From: a virus
Taxonomy: Duplodnaviria > Heunggongvirae > Uroviricota > Caudoviricetes
DNA: 5,410 nucleotides
IMG/VR virus record: IMGVR_UViG_2534681651_000009
Strand: one strand, 5' to 3'
The position numbers and the translations under genes are program-made. A model generated the notes under the pieces. The model saw only the letters and a list, made by a program, of their open reading frames with translations, searched no databases and had not been told where the DNA came from. Each line of letters begins with the position of its first letter. Positions within the stretch are counted from its first letter, which is position 1. This document shows positions 1,701-5,410 of the stretch, one piece after another.

Positions 1701-1711
1701 GTGGAGTGGAT

Positions 1712-4114
1712 ATGGCAGCAGTAAAAATCTCAGGTGTGCTGAAAGATGGTGCGGGAAAACCAATACAGAACTGCACTATTCAACTGAAGGCAAAGCGTAA
1801 CAGCACCACGGTACTGGTCAACACAGTGGCCTCTAAAAATCCGGATGAAGCCGGGCGTTACAGCATGGATGTTGAGTATGGCCAGTACAGCGTCACCCTG
1901 CTGGTTGAAGGTTTTCCGCCTTCACATGCCGGAACCATTACCGTCTATGAAGGTTCCAGACCAGGTACGCTGAATGATTTTCTCGGTGCCATGACGGAAG
2001 ATGATGTCATGCCGGAGGCATTGCGTCGTTTTGAGGAAATGGTGGAAGAAGCGGCACGCAACGCTGAAGCCGCCTCTCAGAGCGCAGCGGCGGCAAAGAA
2101 ATCCGAAACTGCAGCGGCATCATCGAAGAACGCGGCGAAAACCTCAGAAACGAATGCAGCTAACAGCGCACAGGCGGCAGCGGCCTCGCAGACTGCATCG
2201 GCAAACTCCGCAACAGCAGCTAAAAAATCAGAAACCAACGCGAAAAATAGCGAGACAGCCGCAACGACGAGCGAAACCAACGCAAAGTCCAGCCAGACGG
2301 CAGCGAAGACCAGCGAAACGAATGCTAAAGCCAGTGAAACTGCAGCAAAAAACAGCCAGGTTTCAGCAGCCCAAAGCGAGAGCGCGGCAGCCGGTTCTGC
2401 GACTTCAGCAGCCGGATCAGCAACTGCTGCGGCTAACAGCCAGAAAGCTGCGAAGACGAGTGAAACTAACGCAAAGTCCAGCCAGACGGCAGCGAAGACC
2501 AGCGAAACGAATGCCAAAGCCAGTGAAACTGTGGCGAAAAGCAGTCAGGATGCAGCGGCTCAAAGCGAGAGTGCCGCAGCCAGTTCTGCAAGCGCGGCGG
2601 CTGCTTCTGCCACTGCATCAGCTAACAGTCAAAAAGCAGCAAAAACCAGTGAAACCAACGCAAAGGTGAGCGAAACAGCGGCTACGAACTCAGCGAAAGC
2701 ATCGGCAGCAAGCCAGACGGCAGCTAAAGCAAGCGAAGATGCAGCCAGAGAGTACGCAAGCCAGGCTGCGGAGCCGTATAAATATGTCTTACAGCCGTTG
2801 CCTGATGTGTGGATACCGTTTAACGATTCACTGGATATGATTACCGGGTTTGCTCCTGGATATAAGAGAATCACAGTTGGTGACGATGTTATTGCATTGC
2901 CGTCTGAAAAGGTTGTTTCATTTACCAGGGCGTCAACTGCAACGTATATAGATAAGTCTGGGTGTTTTGCTGAATCAGCGATAAATGAACCACGTTTTGA
3001 AAAAGATGGTCTGCTCATTGAAGGTCAGAGAACGAATACTTTTTCTTATACGAATACACCAGTATCGTGGAACTATGACACTGCTAACTTAACTATTACC
3101 ACGGGAGTTGATGAGTATGGTTTCAGTTATGGTTTGTTTGGCGTTAAAGAAACATCCACAACTGAAAGGGCGACATTAATTTCTACTGGATATACCAGGG
3201 TTATTTCAGTTTCGGCAAATGAATCAGTTACTTTATCCTGCAGAGTTAAAAAAGTAAGTGGGGATGGTATTATCACGTTGCGTCCAAGAATATCATATGT
3301 TAACGACGATGGCTCAAGTAACACACTGACCGCTGGCGCATATATTGATTGCGAGACTGGCGATATGTTGAGTTATTCTGGAGGTGAGGCGGCAACTTAT
3401 AACATATTCAGAGAGTCTAATGGATGGATTCGTGTTGAGTTTACCTACAAATCACCAGAAGCAAAAAATATGTATGGGCGTTTTGAGTTTGGAGCACATC
3501 AACGATCAATCAAGTCTGGCGATAAATTAATGTTAACAACCCCTCAATTCGAAAAGGGACTAAACGCGTCATCTTTTATCATCACAACAGAGGTCGGTGC
3601 CACGAGAGCAAGTGACCAGGTAATCATACCTATACCTTTCAATTGGGCAACTCCACCAGTTAGTGTTCTCATGGAAGTTAATGTTAATTGGGATTCTGAA
3701 ATGCCTAATTTAGAAGGCTCTGCGCGTTTGCTTAATATCTCAATTACAGGGGCGACGACTGAAGTTTCTGATGAAAGTTATATGTATTTTGGTTTTACCA
3801 ATCGTGGTAAAAGGCTAATTATCACCAATGGCAAAGGAACAAAAACAGAATATAAAGCATATGGGAATAGAGAGAAAAGGAAATTTGTTACTGGCTTTAA
3901 GTTTACAGAAGATAAACAGTTGCAGGTTGTTGTTGATGGAATTTTAGGTGGCAGCTCCCCGTCTCTGCATACATTGCAACGTTATACTGCCGGTAATATT
4001 AATATCGGTGGACAATCATCCAGTGGCAACAGACACCTGTTCGGTCATGTGAAAAATTTACGCATTTGGCATAAAGAATTAACTGAGGCACAAATGGGGG
4101 AGAGTATTAAATGA
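1712..4114 (+). CDS. stf: Side tail fibre (Stf-like) protein, ~800 aa, mosaic: lambda-Stf-type N-terminus, repetitive Ala/Ser/Thr-rich shaft, and a divergent low-GC C-terminal putative receptor-binding region
   Basis: ORF track gives 1706-4114 from a GTG; I prefer ATG 1712 because GGAG at 1703-1706 sits 5 nt upstream and the product then starts MAAVKISGVLKDG..., matching lambda Stf (orf-401) as I recall it. The first ~110 aa resemble lambda Stf. The shaft carries repeated K-[TSK]-SETNAK motifs. From about aa 350 the sequence is unrelated to the Gly/His-rich lambda Stf C-terminus and ends ...HLFGHVKNLRIWHKELTEAQMGESIK, a motif reminiscent of the last strand of LamG/concanavalin-like jelly-roll domains. 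Stop TGA at 4112-4114. Confidence 0.85.
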   Translation: MAAVKISGVLKDGAGKPIQNCTIQLKAKRNSTTVLVNTVASKNPDEAGRYSMDVEYGQYSVTLLVEGFPPSHAGTITVYEGSRPGTLNDFLGAMTEDDVMPEALRRFEEMVEEAARNAEAASQSAAAAKKSETAAASSKNAAKTSETNAANSAQAAAASQTASANSATAAKKSETNAKNSETAATTSETNAKSSQTAAKTSETNAKASETAAKNSQVSAAQSESAAAGSATSAAGSATAAANSQKAAKTSETNAKSSQTAAKTSETNAKASETVAKSSQDAAAQSESAAASSASAAAASATASANSQKAAKTSETNAKVSETAATNSAKASAASQTAAKASEDAAREYASQAAEPYKYVLQPLPDVWIPFNDSLDMITGFAPGYKRITVGDDVIALPSEKVVSFTRASTATYIDKSGCFAESAINEPRFEKDGLLIEGQRTNTFSYTNTPVSWNYDTANLTITTGVDEYGFSYGLFGVKETSTTERATLISTGYTRVISVSANESVTLSCRVKKVSGDGIITLRPRISYVNDDGSSNTLTAGAYIDCETGDMLSYSGGEAATYNIFRESNGWIRVEFTYKSPEAKNMYGRFEFGAHQRSIKSGDKLMLTTPQFEKGLNASSFIITTEVGATRASDQVIIPIPFNWATPPVSVLMEVNVNWDSEMPNLEGSARLLNISITGATTEVSDESYMYFGFTNRGKRLIITNGKGTKTEYKAYGNREKRKFVTGFKFTEDKQLQVVVDGILGGSSPSLHTLQRYTAGNINIGGQSSSGNRHLFGHVKNLRIWHKELTEAQMGESIK
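2279..2656 (+). repeat. In-frame tandem duplication (2 x 189 bp, period 63 codons) inside the fibre shaft, embedded in a larger low-complexity region (~2050-2760)
   Basis: AACGCAAAGTCCAGCCAGACGGCAGCGAAGACCAGCGAAACGAATGC occurs at 2279 and again at 2468 with one mismatch; the rest of each unit is similar but diverged. Protein-level copies are TSETNAKSSQTAAKTSETNAKASETAAK... and ...ASETVAK... A third partial copy begins near 2657. Confidence 0.85.
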
Positions 4115-4392
4115 AAGATTTAACACTCAAATTTGCAGACAGGACCGACTTTTCGACCTTTATGGATAGCATTGGTTATGAAGATGACGAGGTAATGCAG
4201 AACAATGTTCTCATTGATGTGATAGGTAACGTGTACAAAGAAACCGGAGAACTGACTGAAGATGGCGAGCCGGTATGTGTTAAGGAAGACGGATATTTTG
4301 TAAACGTGCGCATCATTAATGATGCAAAAAAATCGTCAATATTCGATAAATACGCGGTTGTTGTTGAGCATCAACTTCGTGGCTGGATGTGA
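4111..4392 (+). CDS. Hypothetical small acidic protein (93 aa), start-stop overlapped with stf; possible fibre accessory or chaperone, or a moron
   Basis: ATG 4111-4113 overlaps the stf stop TGA 4112-4114 (ATGA overlap), implying translational coupling. Product has 19 Asp/Glu against about 11 Lys/Arg and no hydrophobic segment. Low GC, like the stf 3' region. I do not recognise the family. Confidence 0.6.
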   Translation: MKDLTLKFADRTDFSTFMDSIGYEDDEVMQNNVLIDVIGNVYKETGELTEDGEPVCVKEDGYFVNVRIINDAKKSSIFDKYAVVVEHQLRGWM

Positions 4393-4401
4393 GGTAGAGA
4401 A

Positions 4402-5106
4402 ATGGCTACATCGACAGTAATTCCAGGAGATATCACCAAGCTAAAGGGGGATGTCAGTAAAGCTAAGGAAGATATTTCATCAATTAGCGGAAAAGTATCA
4501 ACGCTTCAGACTGATATGGACAGTGCAAAGCAGGATATCAGTACCAGATACACAAAAACAGAAGTGGATAATAAGCTGAAAAACAAAGTGGAAGTGAACG
4601 ATCTGGAAAGCGGTCGTTATGGCGGAGATTTTTATCCACTGACAGGTCGTGAAGCGTTTTATTTATGGGGATTGGGCACAACTACAGCGGCGGCAAATCT
4701 TTATCTTAATCCTGACCCTGCAATTTCGTCTGTGCTGCGGTCAACATCGTCTATCCGCTATAAACATTCAGTAGAGACGATAGATTCAGAGCACGCCGAT
4801 CTCATTTTCAGGATGCGCCCTGTGTGGTACAGGTCGCAATGCGAAAATGACAGGCGTGACTGGGGATTCTATGGATTGATTGCCGAGGAAGTTGGAGAAA
4901 TTGCCCCTCAGTTTGTACACTGGCGACCAGCCAACGAAGATGATGCACCGGAAACCATTTCCAGCAATGGCCTTGTTGCCGAAGGTGTAATGTACGAACG
5001 TCTGGTTGTTCCACTGATTCACCATATCCAGAAGCTGACTGAAAGAGTTGATGAACTTGAGTCAGAATTAAAGTTGTTATCCGTTTCCCGAAGCGATATC
5101 GGATAA
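4402..5106 (+). CDS. Coiled-coil protein with a C-terminal peptidase-S74-like intramolecular chaperone domain (234 aa), free-standing rather than fused to a fibre
   Basis: GAGG at 4391-4394 sits 7 nt upstream of ATG 4402. The N-terminal ~70 aa are heptad-like (KLKGDVSKAKEDISSISGKVSTLQTDMDSAKQDIS). The C-terminal ~120 aa match the S74 chaperone-of-endosialidase pattern as I recall it: S116-S-I-R-Y-K121 (Ser/Lys dyad spacing), MRPVWY, GLIAEEVGEIAPQFV, and YERLVVPLIHHIQKLTERVDELESEL. Stop TAA at 5104-5106. Confidence 0.7.
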   Translation: MATSTVIPGDITKLKGDVSKAKEDISSISGKVSTLQTDMDSAKQDISTRYTKTEVDNKLKNKVEVNDLESGRYGGDFYPLTGREAFYLWGLGTTTAAANLYLNPDPAISSVLRSTSSIRYKHSVETIDSEHADLIFRMRPVWYRSQCENDRRDWGFYGLIAEEVGEIAPQFVHWRPANEDDAPETISSNGLVAEGVMYERLVVPLIHHIQKLTERVDELESELKLLSVSRSDIG

Positions 5107-5116: not shown

Positions 5117-5410
5117 ATGGATATAACACCTTTCCTTCATGCACTTTGTGCTGTGGCTGCGCAGGTACTGGTTGGTCTTTTTACCGGAAACTGGGCTTAC
5201 GGGGCGATAGCTGGTTGTACGTTCTTCATTGCGCGTGAACACACCCAGGCAGAATATCGCTGGATTGAAATGTTTGGGCATGGCAAGCGAATGAATATGC
5301 CGTGGTGGGGCGGTTTTGATCCGCGCGCTTGGGATGTGGCAAGCCTGATGGATTTTGCTGTGCCGGTGGTGGCGTGTCTGCTGGTCTGGCTGTTGGTTAA
5401 TCGTGGGTGA
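5117..5410 (+). CDS. Hypothetical small integral membrane protein (97 aa, about two predicted TM helices); possible moron such as a superinfection-exclusion or membrane-acting protein
   Basis: Consensus SD upstream. Hydrophobic stretches at about aa 6-38 (FLHALCAVAAQVLVGLFTGNWAYGAIAGCTFFIA) and 75-95 (VASLMDFAVPVVACLLVWLLV) flank a charged/aromatic loop (EHTQAEYRWIEMFGHGKRMNMPWWGGFDPRAW). GC content returns to roughly 50% or more. Stop TGA at 5408-5410. Family not recognised. Confidence 0.6.
   Translation: MDITPFLHALCAVAAQVLVGLFTGNWAYGAIAGCTFFIAREHTQAEYRWIEMFGHGKRMNMPWWGGFDPRAWDVASLMDFAVPVVACLLVWLLVNRG

What the first reader, a model, noticed from the sequence alone, without database searches (positions are those of the whole stretch)
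4402..5106. Free-standing S74-like chaperone domain with an apparently intact Ser-Lys dyad
S74 domains normally act in cis and are auto-cleaved from the fibre they fold. This ORF has its own RBS and start, an N-terminal coiled-coil of about 70 aa, and a C-terminal domain with S116 and K121 spaced as in the catalytic dyad (SSIRYK), followed by MRPVWY and GLIAEEV motifs and a terminal amphipathic helix. If active, it would self-cleave near T115/S116 to release a ~115-aa trimeric coiled-coil product. That product could be a small fibre-like or adaptor protein, or the gene could be the truncated relic of another fibre.
Basis: partly seen in the sequence, partly recalled or inferred. Interest (0 to 1): 0.65.

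Follow-up and report, generated by a model that had tools for sequence, protein, structure and literature searches.

The report
Minimal self-cleaving distal tail-fibre subunit
This small prophage gene is not a lone chaperone or a gene fragment but the shortest common version of a swappable tail-fibre tip protein, which very likely uses its own built-in folding domain to trimerise and then cuts that domain off.

Summary
Window 4402-5106 is an intact 234-aa ORF with its own RBS, a heptad coiled coil, and a C-terminal Peptidase_S74 domain whose Ser116/Lys121 align with the catalytic dyad of solved relatives. The "free-standing chaperone" framing misleads and the relic alternative is rejected. The gene is the third member of a conserved cassette: a side/lateral fibre with a galectin-like C-terminal domain, a ~92-aa acidic protein, then a third protein. 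This arrangement occurs in five siphovirus groups: lambdoid, T1-like, Dhillonvirus, Queuovirinae and T5-like. Across groups, third proteins share mainly an N-terminal motif (MxTxTxIPxDITxLK). Their lengths are 98, 221-241, 333, 346, 510 and 574 aa. The 574-aa one (IrisVonRoten Gp24) is published as a distal receptor-binding fibre docked on the proximal fibre. E. coli prophages carry either this short allele (~740 of 5,426 genomes) or a 346-aa allele (~512) in the same slot. The short allele is intact in 80/80 loci, keeps SSIRYK in 80/80, and has dN/dS 0.15. Residues ~45-234 match the distal tip plus chaperone of long Stf fibres. Most likely it is a minimal distal fibre that trimerises, self-cleaves at T115|S116 and leaves a 115-aa stub on Stf. 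Cleavage, virion incorporation and the stub's function are untested. Moderate interest.

The parts
4391..4394 (+). Shine-Dalgarno GAGG, 7 nt upstream of the ATG; it overlaps the TGA stop (4390-4392) of the 93-aa ORF, which suggests translational coupling within the cassette
   Evidence: Read directly from the sequence.
4402..5106 (+). 234-aa ORF: short allele of the distal ('third-gene') tail-fibre subunit with a C-terminal S74 intramolecular chaperone
4402..4455 (+). Residues 1-18, N-terminal anchor motif MATSTVIPGDITKLKGDV (consensus MxTxTxIPxDITxLK); inferred docking module for the proximal fibre and/or the 93-aa protein
   Evidence: Invariant in third-gene proteins of lambdoid, T1-like, T5-like and Seuratvirus phages and present in IrisVonRoten Gp24 and the Dhillonvirus KarlBarth gp30. 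It is the only part shared with the 333-, 346-, 510- and 574-aa versions. In 166 of 167 occurrences it lies at residue 7 of its own ORF. The docking role itself is inferred.
4432..4557 (+). Residues 11-52, six regular heptads ([I/V/M]xx[L/A/I]xx[D/K]); predicted trimeric coiled-coil shaft
   Evidence: Heptad layout. AF2 helix 11-47. One 227-aa allele deletes exactly the heptad DVSKAKE; 227- and 241-aa alleles (-7/+7) recur, and non-heptad length variants (223, 229, 233 aa) also exist. dN/dS 0.34.
4597..4746 (+). Residues 66-115, small pre-cleavage tip (…GDFYPLTGREAFYLWGLGTTTAAANLYLNPDPAISSVLRST), homologous to the extreme distal tip of long Stf fibres; probably folds only as an intertwined trimer
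   Evidence: Matches the C-terminal tips of 539-1243-aa fibres. N99 is invariant and T94 and R113 nearly so. dN/dS 0.11. AF2 monomer pLDDT <50 here.
4744..4764 (+). Predicted scissile bond T115|S116 (codons ACA 4744-4746 and TCG 4747-4749) and general-base K121 (AAA 4762-4764)
   Evidence: Aligned to T5 pb1 Thr1263|Ser1264…Lys1269 by way of 8hqz and Pfam. SSIRYK is present in 80 of 80 alleles.
4747..5103 (+). Residues 116-234, Peptidase_S74 / C-terminal intramolecular chaperone domain, including the terminal coiled-coil helix 199-233; predicted to be released after cleavage
   Evidence: dN/dS 0.075 for residues 116-205.
1706..4114 (+). Side tail fibre Stf (802 aa), the proximal fibre of the cassette: PF08400 N-terminus, Ala-rich coiled-coil repeats, and a conserved ~450-aa C-terminal region (about nt 2770-4111) beginning LQPLPDVWIPFNDSL and ending RHLFGHVKNLRIWHKELT
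   Evidence: The equivalent Gp22 of IrisVonRoten is described as a proximal fibre with a galectin-like C-terminal domain (PMC11990801).
4111..4392 (+). 93-aa acidic protein (phrog_1361), an invariable partner of this fibre type; adaptor or fibre chaperone, role unresolved
   Evidence: 41-48% identity in T1-like, T5-like and Seuratvirus cassettes. Found in 187 phage records. The AF2 model was unusable.
5117..5410 (+). 97-aa predicted membrane protein (phrog_1443) that closes the lambdoid version of the cassette; function unknown

Best explanation
The ORF encodes a minimal distal (or branch) subunit of a two-part side tail fibre. Three copies are brought together by the C-terminal S74 intramolecular chaperone and the heptad coiled coil. 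The chaperone templates folding of the small tip (residues ~66-115). Once the trimer is correctly folded, Ser116, activated by Lys121, cleaves the T115|S116 bond in each chain and the chaperone trimer (119 aa per chain) is released. What remains is a 115-aa-per-chain trimeric stub. Its invariant N-terminal motif (MxTxTxIPxDITxLK) docks it on the proximal fibre Stf, near Stf's galectin-like C-terminal domain, possibly through or with the help of the 93-aa protein. The gene occupies a polymorphic slot in which other phages carry versions with large receptor-binding domains. This allele has almost none, so it either presents a small conserved tip or simply caps the docking site. Shown here: the domain identity, dyad alignment and conservation, cassette synteny, slot polymorphism, purifying selection, and homology of residues 45-234 to long-fibre ends. 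Inferred: trimerisation, cleavage, docking, and presence in the virion.
For: S74 identity and dyad. The cleavage mechanism in the closest solved relative, T5 pb1, is experimentally established (S1264A blocks cleavage; only the processed protein competes with phage; PMC4690869). The cassette of fibre, ~92-aa protein and third protein is conserved in lambdoid, Drexlerviridae, Markadamsvirinae, Queuovirinae and Dhillonvirus phages. Third-gene proteins of different groups share only the N-terminal ~15-50 aa, while the middle region and even the S74 subtype are swapped (SSIRYK against SDRDLK or SDSRLK). IrisVonRoten Gp24 (574 aa, same motif, same slot) is modelled in the literature as a distal receptor-binding fibre attached to proximal fibre Gp22 (PMC11990801). 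In E. coli prophages the same slot holds either this 234-aa allele or a 346-aa allele with a variable beta-rich domain plus S74. Population data: 80 of 80 intact, SSIRYK in 80 of 80, dN/dS 0.15 overall, 0.11 in the tip, 0.075 in S74. Residues 45-234 are 55-61% identical to the distal ends of long lambdoid Stf fibres, and P0067 has an identical last ~33 aa, so the same chaperone module works in cis in bona fide fibres.
Against: There is no experimental evidence for cleavage, trimerisation or virion incorporation of this short protein; none turned up in the literature searches. The neighbouring-chain arginine that makes cleavage folding-dependent in T5 pb1 and endoNF (14 residues upstream of the serine) has no obvious counterpart: position -14 is L102, and the nearly invariant R113 sits at -3. 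The mature part has no recognisable receptor-binding domain, so its benefit to the phage is unclear. The gene is frameshifted in some viable T1-like phages and absent from viable lambdoid phages with the same fibre type, so it is dispensable at least in some settings. Docking on Stf rests on analogy with a published AlphaFold-Multimer model, not on a solved structure.
Confidence: 0.72

Rival explanations
1. Trans-acting chaperone. The protein, as annotated in the BASEL genomes ('putative lateral tail fiber chaperone'), is not a virion component. It uses its S74 domain, or its N-terminal peptide, to help the upstream Stf/LTF fold or trimerise.
For: GenBank annotations of KarlJaspers, PeterMerian, KurtStettler and HMD-P4. 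The gene lies where lambda carries tfa. The upstream Stf has neither an S74 domain nor an intact Tfa partner; only a tfa remnant lies downstream. The passenger is so small that a structural role is not obvious.
Against: All characterised S74 domains act in cis on the chain they are later cut from (PMC4690869). Stf lacks the conserved pre-cleavage tip ('GTTTxxANxY…RSTSS') that accompanies this domain in thousands of fibres. The S74 subtype is swapped between cassettes while the Stf C-terminal domain stays conserved, and one cassette (KarlBarth) has a motif-bearing third gene with no S74 at all. Third genes of 346-574 aa carry receptor-binding domains. Viable lambdoid phages Perceval and PhiR47_2 have an intact Stf of this type plus the 92-aa gene and no third gene. 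The catalytic dyad is strictly conserved, which a non-cleaving helper would not need.
Confidence: 0.08
2. Truncated relic. The ORF is the leftover 3' end of a formerly long Stf-type fibre gene that happens to retain an open frame.
For: Residues ~45-234 are homologous to the C-terminal ends of long lambdoid Stf fibres, with an identical last ~33 aa in one of them. PHROG 3299 aligns the whole ORF to the end of a 1,385-position profile. The surrounding region has clearly been rearranged, with a tfa remnant downstream.
Against: 80 of 80 loci are intact across 47 nucleotide alleles, with dN/dS 0.15 and purifying selection on residues 1-20 as well (0.15). The ORF has its own RBS and a dedicated N-terminal motif shared with full-size distal fibres, and that motif never occurs inside a longer ORF. 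The gene keeps the same position and ~60% identity in lytic T1-like phages. It is present as a full-length ORF in ~740 of 5,426 E. coli genomes.
Confidence: 0.03
3. Transient assembly factor or regulatory cap. The protein docks on Stf through its N-terminal motif but is not a stable receptor-binding element. It might block or protect the docking site, or set fibre conformation, and it may be lost from mature virions. Alternatively, the released S74 trimer itself has a secondary role.
For: No receptor-binding domain is present. The tip is conserved rather than hypervariable (about 65-70% identity between lambdoid and T1-like versions; dN/dS 0.11), unlike O-antigen-binding tips. The gene is dispensable in some phages. 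The short allele coexists at high frequency with the 346-aa allele in the same slot.
Against: Nothing specific supports a transient association. The architecture (anchor, shaft, tip, self-removing chaperone) is that of a stable fibre. The same tip ends bona fide long fibres.
Confidence: 0.15

Closest known systems
IrisVonRoten (Bas32, Tequintavirus) Gp22-Gp23-Gp24 lateral fibre module (Humolli et al. 2025, PMC11990801)
   Same: Same three-gene order. The proximal fibre ends '…RHLFGHIRNFRIWHKELT', there is a 92-aa homologue of the window's 93-aa protein, and the third protein starts MVTKTVIPTDITKLK and ends in an S74 chaperone.
   Different: Gp24 is 574 aa, with two receptor-binding domains (Gp12-like and T5-like) forming a T-shaped tip. 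The window protein has only a coiled coil and a ~50-aa tip. The S74 subtype also differs (SDSRLK against SSIRYK). Beyond the first ~15 residues the two proteins are not alignable before the S74 domain.
T5 pb1 L-shaped tail fibre and DT57C LtfA/LtfB (PDB 4UW8-type structures; 8hqz; PMC4690869, PMC4728585, PMC10713586)
   Same: A C-terminal S74 intramolecular chaperone with a Thr|Ser…Lys site (alignment; mechanism). DT57C is the precedent for a second fibre protein attached to the first.
   Different: Those passengers are 940-1,260 aa with large receptor-binding domains; here the passenger is 115 aa. LtfB uses a different attachment and there is no 92-aa partner. The neighbouring-chain Arg sensor at -14 is not evident here.
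Long lambdoid Stf fibres ending in the same tip plus chaperone (P0066, 735 aa; P0068, 958 aa; P0072, 1,243 aa)
   Same: 55-61% identity to ORF residues ~45-234, covering the 'YTKTEV' unit, the tip, the dyad and the terminal helix. P0067's last ~33 residues are identical.
   Different: In those proteins the module is fused in cis to a complete fibre with the PF08400 virion-attachment domain. Here it follows a 44-aa anchor and coiled coil and is encoded as a separate gene downstream of a different Stf type.
346-aa alternative allele in the same E. coli prophage slot (phrog_4563, 'tail fiber protein')
   Same: Same position between the 93-aa and 97-aa genes, starting 13 nt after the 93-aa match in the IMG/VR loci, with the same first ~24 residues and a C-terminal S74 domain.
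   Different: It carries a ~210-aa beta-rich, allelically variable domain and the SDRDLK S74 subtype. It is found in ~512 genomes at >=80% coverage, against ~740 for the short allele.
Endosialidase (K1F endoNF) C-terminal intramolecular chaperone and the MyRF ICA domain (PDB 3gw6, 3gud, 7dc3)
   Same: Same fold and same Ser-Lys dyad register.
   Different: Only distant sequence similarity, and the passengers are unrelated: a triple-beta-helix tailspike stalk in one case and a eukaryotic transcription factor in the other.

Membership tests
Peptidase_S74 / C-terminal intramolecular chaperone domain (Pfam PF13884) | Profile HMM match above Pfam's gathering threshold | tested here: met
   27.1 bits against a cutoff of 22, E=5.2e-6, residues 116-172 matching profile positions 1-57 of 58.
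Peptidase_S74 / C-terminal intramolecular chaperone domain (Pfam PF13884) | Catalytic Ser and Lys five residues apart, aligned with the experimentally defined dyad (T5 pb1 Ser1264/Lys1269) | tested here: met
   S116 is profile position 1. S116 and K121 align with 8hqz 'TSGIEYK' and 7dc3 'ADLRAK'. Both are invariant in 26 homologues and in 80 of 80 alleles. The dyad definition comes from PMC4690869.
Peptidase_S74 / C-terminal intramolecular chaperone domain (Pfam PF13884) | Characteristic fold: an alpha/beta domain plus a terminal coiled-coil helix | tested here: met
   AF2 pLDDT 75-94 for residues 121-233. Foldseek hits: 7dc3 at E=2e-5 (TM-score on the target 0.60) and 3gud at E=0.03.
Peptidase_S74 / C-terminal intramolecular chaperone domain (Pfam PF13884) | Located at the C-terminus, in cis, behind a trimeric fibrous passenger | tested here: met
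   The domain occupies residues 116-234 of 234. Residues 11-52 form regular heptads and residues 66-115 are homologous to long-fibre tips. Trimerisation itself was not tested.
Peptidase_S74 / C-terminal intramolecular chaperone domain (Pfam PF13884) | Folding-dependent cleavage through an Arg from a neighbouring chain (Arg1250 in pb1, 14 residues upstream of the Ser) | tested here: inconclusive
   Position -14 is L102. The nearly invariant R113 (-3) and invariant N99 (-17) are candidates. No trimer model could be made.
Peptidase_S74 / C-terminal intramolecular chaperone domain (Pfam PF13884) | Actual autoproteolysis and release of the domain | not testable with these tools
   Requires expression, SDS-PAGE and mass spectrometry, plus S116A and K121A mutants.
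Third-gene distal fibre subunits of the 'galectin-tipped fibre + ~92-aa protein' cassette (prototype IrisVonRoten Gp24) | N-terminal motif MxTxTxIPxDI[T/K]x[L/Q]K at the very start of the protein | tested here: met
   MATSTVIPGDITKLK. The same motif occurs in KarlJaspers, HMD-P4, KurtStettler, IrisVonRoten Gp24, KarlBarth gp30 and the 346-aa allele. 166 of 167 occurrences are N-terminal.
Third-gene distal fibre subunits of the 'galectin-tipped fibre + ~92-aa protein' cassette (prototype IrisVonRoten Gp24) | Encoded immediately downstream of a ~92-aa homologue, which follows a fibre gene ending '…RHLFGHxxNxRxWHKxLT' | tested here: met
   Window genes 1706-4114, 4111-4392 and 4402-5106. Homology of each partner across phage groups is shown.
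Third-gene distal fibre subunits of the 'galectin-tipped fibre + ~92-aa protein' cassette (prototype IrisVonRoten Gp24) | A receptor-binding domain between the anchor and the chaperone | tested here: not met
   Only a coiled coil and a ~50-aa tip lie between them. No domain hit was found. This is how the short allele departs from the prototype.
Third-gene distal fibre subunits of the 'galectin-tipped fibre + ~92-aa protein' cassette (prototype IrisVonRoten Gp24) | Physical attachment to the proximal fibre in the virion | not testable with these tools
   Only a published AlphaFold-Multimer model of the prototype exists.
Separate tail-fibre assembly chaperones (lambda Tfa / Mu gpU / T4 gp38 type) | Sequence or profile similarity to Tfa-type families | tested here: not met
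   No Pfam, NCBIfam or PHROG hit to tail-fibre assembly families. All PHROG hits are fibre or tail proteins, or families of unknown function.

The most novel reading that the evidence does not exclude
The short allele is a receptor-blind 'cap' version of a swappable distal fibre, and a natural minimal passenger for an S74 chaperone. It occupies the docking site on Stf in place of a receptor-binding tip. That would change which receptor-binding element of the two-part fibre is exposed (Stf's galectin-like domain against a distal tip), so the short/long polymorphism in E. coli prophages would act as a host-range or adsorption switch at the population level.
Probability: 0.2. Interest if true: 0.55.

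Novelty: new member of a known kind. Interest (0 to 1): 0.36.

Why it matters
It corrects a widespread annotation. "Chaperone of endosialidase" and "putative lateral tail fiber chaperone" should read as a distal fibre subunit with its own self-removing chaperone. It also defines a portable three-gene fibre cassette with a recognisable N-terminal docking motif, shared by five siphovirus groups. That helps in predicting and engineering host range in lambdoid, T1-like and T5-like phages. With 115 residues, the mature part is a very small natural passenger for an S74 chaperone. That makes it a convenient model for studying chaperone-templated trimer folding and cleavage, and possibly a compact self-removing trimerisation tag. 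Mechanistically it does not look like a new principle.

Tried and rejected

2. An AF2 model of the 93-aa partner, built on a shallow alignment of 82-99% identical sequences, gave mean pLDDT 54.7. That is too poor for a fold search, so its role as adaptor or chaperone is unresolved.

3. Literature searches for 'lateral tail fiber chaperone', PhiR49_1, lambdoid side tail fibre with intramolecular chaperone, and 'chaperone of endosialidase' in Drexlerviridae found no experimental work on this protein.

4. The hit to phrog_3299 (1,385 positions) first suggested a fragment of a giant fibre. I rejected that because the motif is never internal and the closest long proteins align only from residue ~45.

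5. Weak coiled-coil hits (LPP zipper, P22 gp26, Bacillus 'minor head protein', TCR chains) were treated as compositional or coiled-coil noise.

6. Lambda_4C10, which lacks the third gene, was not used as evidence because its Stf is IS-disrupted. Perceval and PhiR47_2 were used instead.
Full report
**Context.** The window is the tail-fibre end of an E. coli lambdoid prophage, 99.9% identical to strain AST215. It encodes, in order:

| Window coordinates | Product | Key evidence |
|---|---|---|
| 148-978 | C-terminus of J | |
| 1048-1647 | Lom | |
| 1706-4114 | Side tail fibre Stf, 802 aa, PF08400 N-terminus | |
| 4111-4392 | 93-aa acidic ORF | |
| 4402-5106 | Target ORF, 234 aa | |
| 5117-5410 | 97-aa predicted membrane ORF | |

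In the source genome a 3' remnant of a tfa gene follows. So this block displaced an older stf-tfa pair.

**Checking the observation.**
- The ORF starts at ATG 4402, with GAGG 7 nt upstream.
- Pfam Peptidase_S74 matches residues 116-172 above the gathering threshold, with S116 as profile position 1.
- SSIRYK places S116 and K121 five residues apart.
- phmmer against the PDB aligns them with the corresponding residues of the T5-like L-shaped fibre 8hqz and the MyRF ICA domain 7dc3.
- Both residues, together with most of the MRPVWYRS and GLIAEE motifs, are invariant or nearly so in 26 homologues down to 28% identity.
- An AF2 monomer model is confident for residues 121-233. Foldseek retrieves the MyRF ICA domain and the endosialidase/GA-1 intramolecular chaperones.
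- The N-terminal helix comprises six regular heptads, residues 11-52.

**Relic or gene?** The gene is a full-length 705-nt ORF in about 740 of 5,426 complete E. coli genomes. It also occurs in isolated phages: lambdoid PhiR49_1, IdasGreatGrand and PhiR55_1, and about 45 T1-like Drexlerviridae at ~60% identity.

In 80 IMG/VR loci it is intact in every case (227-241 aa), with 47 nucleotide alleles, and SSIRYK is present in all 80. Pooled Nei-Gojobori dN/dS values:

| Region (residues) | dN/dS |
|---|---|
| Whole ORF | 0.15 |
| Anchor (1-20) | 0.15 |
| Coiled coil (21-65) | 0.34 |
| Pre-cleavage tip (66-115) | 0.11 |
| S74 domain (116-205) | 0.075 |

One 227-aa allele deletes exactly the heptad DVSKAKE. 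Alleles of 227 and 241 aa (-7 and +7 residues) recur in the IMG/VR set, alongside non-heptad variants of 229 and 233 aa. The relic reading is therefore rejected.

**Relation to long fibres.** An exhaustive search found 3,509 homologues. Nearly all are C-terminal ends of longer proteins, and the match typically starts 25-30 residues before S116. The conserved module therefore includes a pre-cleavage segment, "GTTTxxANxY…RSTSS".

The closest long relatives are lambdoid Stf fibres of 735-1,243 aa. They carry the same PF08400 N-terminus as the window's Stf, and their distal ~190 aa are 55-61% identical to ORF residues ~45-234. In P0067 the last ~33 residues are identical. So the ORF is a 44-aa N-terminal module joined to the terminal "YTKTEV unit + tip + chaperone" of a canonical long fibre. 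The S74 domain here is the same one that works in cis in ordinary fibres.

**The cassette.** The decisive evidence is context. In five siphovirus groups the same three genes occur in the same order:
1. A side or lateral fibre whose last ~450 aa begin LQPLPDVWIPFN(D/N)SLDMITGF and end RHLFGHxxNxRxWHKxLT (36-39% identity overall).
2. A ~92-aa acidic protein (41-48% identity).
3. A third protein.

The five groups and the phages examined are:

| Group | Phages examined |
|---|---|
| Lambdoid | the window prophage, PhiR49_1 |
| Drexlerviridae (T1-like) | KarlJaspers, AV105 |
| Markadamsvirinae (T5-like) | HMD-P4, IrisVonRoten |
| Queuovirinae | KurtStettler |
| Dhillonvirus | KarlBarth |

The third proteins are 98, 221-241, 333, 346, 510 and 574 aa long. 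Between groups they share only the N-terminal motif MxTxTxIPxDI(T/K)xLK and a short coiled coil. The S74 subtype is swapped (SSIRYK here; SDRDLK or SDSRLK elsewhere), and KarlBarth's version has no S74 domain at all. The motif occurs 167 times in the collected loci. In 166 of those it sits at residue 7 of its own ORF, and it is never fused inside a longer fibre.

A conserved N-terminal anchor, a variable distal part and a generic folding ending are the hallmark of modular receptor-binding proteins. For IrisVonRoten the literature already describes Gp24 (574 aa) as a T-shaped distal receptor-binding fibre with a C-terminal intramolecular chaperone. That paper models it as attached to proximal fibre Gp22, whose C-terminus carries a galectin-like domain (PMC11990801). 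I showed that Gp22, Gp23 and Gp24 are homologous in arrangement and motifs to the window's three genes.

**A polymorphic slot.** I collected 80 prophage loci anchored on the 93-aa gene:
- 54 carry the short allele.
- 20 show no hit to it despite enough downstream sequence. I examined 18 of these, and every one carries a 346-aa ORF in the same place. It has the same first ~24 residues, a ~210-aa beta-rich domain in several allelic forms, and an SDRDLK-type S74 domain.
- 6 are too short downstream to tell.

The long allele covers at least 80% of the query in 512 E. coli genomes. Viable lambdoid phages Perceval and PhiR47_2 have an intact Stf of this type plus the 92-aa and 97-aa genes and no third gene. 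Several T1-like phages carry a frameshifted copy. The third gene is thus an optional, exchangeable add-on to this fibre type.

**Mechanism.** In T5 pb1 the chaperone trimer templates the distal domain. Cleavage occurs at Thr1263|Ser1264, with Lys1269 activating the serine, and an arginine from a neighbouring chain makes the reaction depend on correct trimer folding. S1264A blocks processing, and only the processed protein is active (PMC4690869).

By homology, the window protein should trimerise and fold its 50-aa tip under the chaperone. It should then cut at T115|S116 and release a 119-aa chaperone fragment. That leaves a trimeric 115-aa stub consisting of anchor, ~6-nm coiled coil and small tip. 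The anchor motif most plausibly docks on Stf or the 93-aa protein.

The steps shown here are domain identity, dyad conservation, synteny, polymorphism and selection. Cleavage, trimerisation, docking and virion presence are inferred. I could not identify a counterpart of the pb1 Arg sensor: position -14 is L102, and R113 and N99 are the conserved candidates.

**Rivals.**
- **Trans-acting chaperone** (the BASEL annotation). This is disfavoured for five reasons. S74 domains act in cis. Stf lacks the matching pre-cleavage tip. The S74 subtype varies or is absent while Stf's C-terminal domain is conserved. The larger alleles carry receptor-binding domains. Phages with this Stf type exist without the gene.
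- **Transient cap or assembly factor.** This cannot be excluded. The short allele has no receptor-binding domain and its tip is conserved rather than diversifying.

**Novelty and interest.** The family and mechanism are known, and the cassette's prototype has been described. Three things are new:
- The widely annotated "chaperone" is recognised as the minimal allele of that distal-fibre slot.
- The N-terminal docking motif is defined across five phage groups.
- The short/long/none polymorphism in E. coli prophages is documented.

That is useful for annotation and fibre engineering, and it offers a compact model for S74 biology. It would not greatly surprise a specialist. My interest score is 0.36.

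**Limits.** No multimer modelling was possible. The model of the 93-aa partner was unusable. No experimental literature on the short protein was found.

Noticed in passing
window 5117-5410 (+): A 97-aa predicted multi-pass membrane protein (phrog_1443; no Pfam or NCBIfam hit) closes the lambdoid cassette. It is present whether the third gene is the short allele, the long allele or absent (Perceval, PhiR47_2, Lambda_4C10). Function unknown; a moron or superinfection-related role is conceivable.
   Followed up: partly
window 4111-4392 (+): The 93-aa acidic protein (phrog_1361) always accompanies fibres ending '…RHLFGHxxNxRxWHKxLT'. It occurs in 187 phage records from six groups, including rV5-like myoviruses, where no motif-bearing third gene follows. 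It could be an adaptor or the fibre's chaperone. The AF2 model was too poor to use (pLDDT 54.7).
   Followed up: partly
window 1706-4114 (+), especially about 2770-4111: The Stf C-terminal region matches NCBIfam NF048003 'GTA_spike_fiber' (residues 437-635). It ends in a motif conserved across all cassettes. The equivalent part of IrisVonRoten Gp22 is called galectin-like in the literature. It is probably a receptor-binding domain in its own right.
   Followed up: partly
window about 2000-3020, both strands: The Ala/Ser/Thr-rich coiled-coil repeats of Stf generate long spurious ORFs in other frames and on the minus strand (2001-2669 +, 2077-2517 -, 2629-3018 -, for example). These are not genes.
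   Followed up: no
L001 13431-13550 (just downstream of the window in the source genome); L172 7029-7139 (BL21): A 3' remnant of a tail-fibre assembly (tfa) gene follows the cassette. In BL21's Qin-like cryptic prophage it lies next to the pinQ invertase. The upstream fibre gene there lacks its 5' end and abuts an IS3 element, while the 234-aa ORF stays intact.
   Followed up: partly
L004 3850-4588 (phage AV105); also orkinos, JLBYU19, JLBYU10 and ityhuna: In AV105 the third gene carries a single frameshift near codon 80 (at …FYP|L…), which splits it into two ORFs. Four other T1-like phages gave two-piece matches and were not inspected. I did not determine whether this is a sequencing error, real decay or recoding.
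   Followed up: partly
L006 5001-6533 (phage KurtStettler, 510 aa): This third-gene version carries about 250 extra residues after the S74 core. They include a Gly-rich stretch and a Cys-rich 'PTPPTPPTSCC' C-terminus, which is unusual for a domain that is supposed to be cleaved off and discarded. Unexplained.
   Followed up: no
L173 6001-6705 (plasmid NZ_CP117002.1, 108 kb): An identical 234-aa protein (WP_000235971.1) and the rest of the cassette lie on a large plasmid carrying phage tail genes, probably a phage-plasmid. The upstream fibre gene there is annotated as incomplete.
   Followed up: no
L171 4270-5149 (phage KarlBarth gp30/gp31): The Dhillonvirus third gene bears the anchor motif but is split into overlapping 98-aa and 196-aa ORFs and lacks any S74 domain. 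This could be a frameshifted or two-part distal fibre.
   Followed up: no
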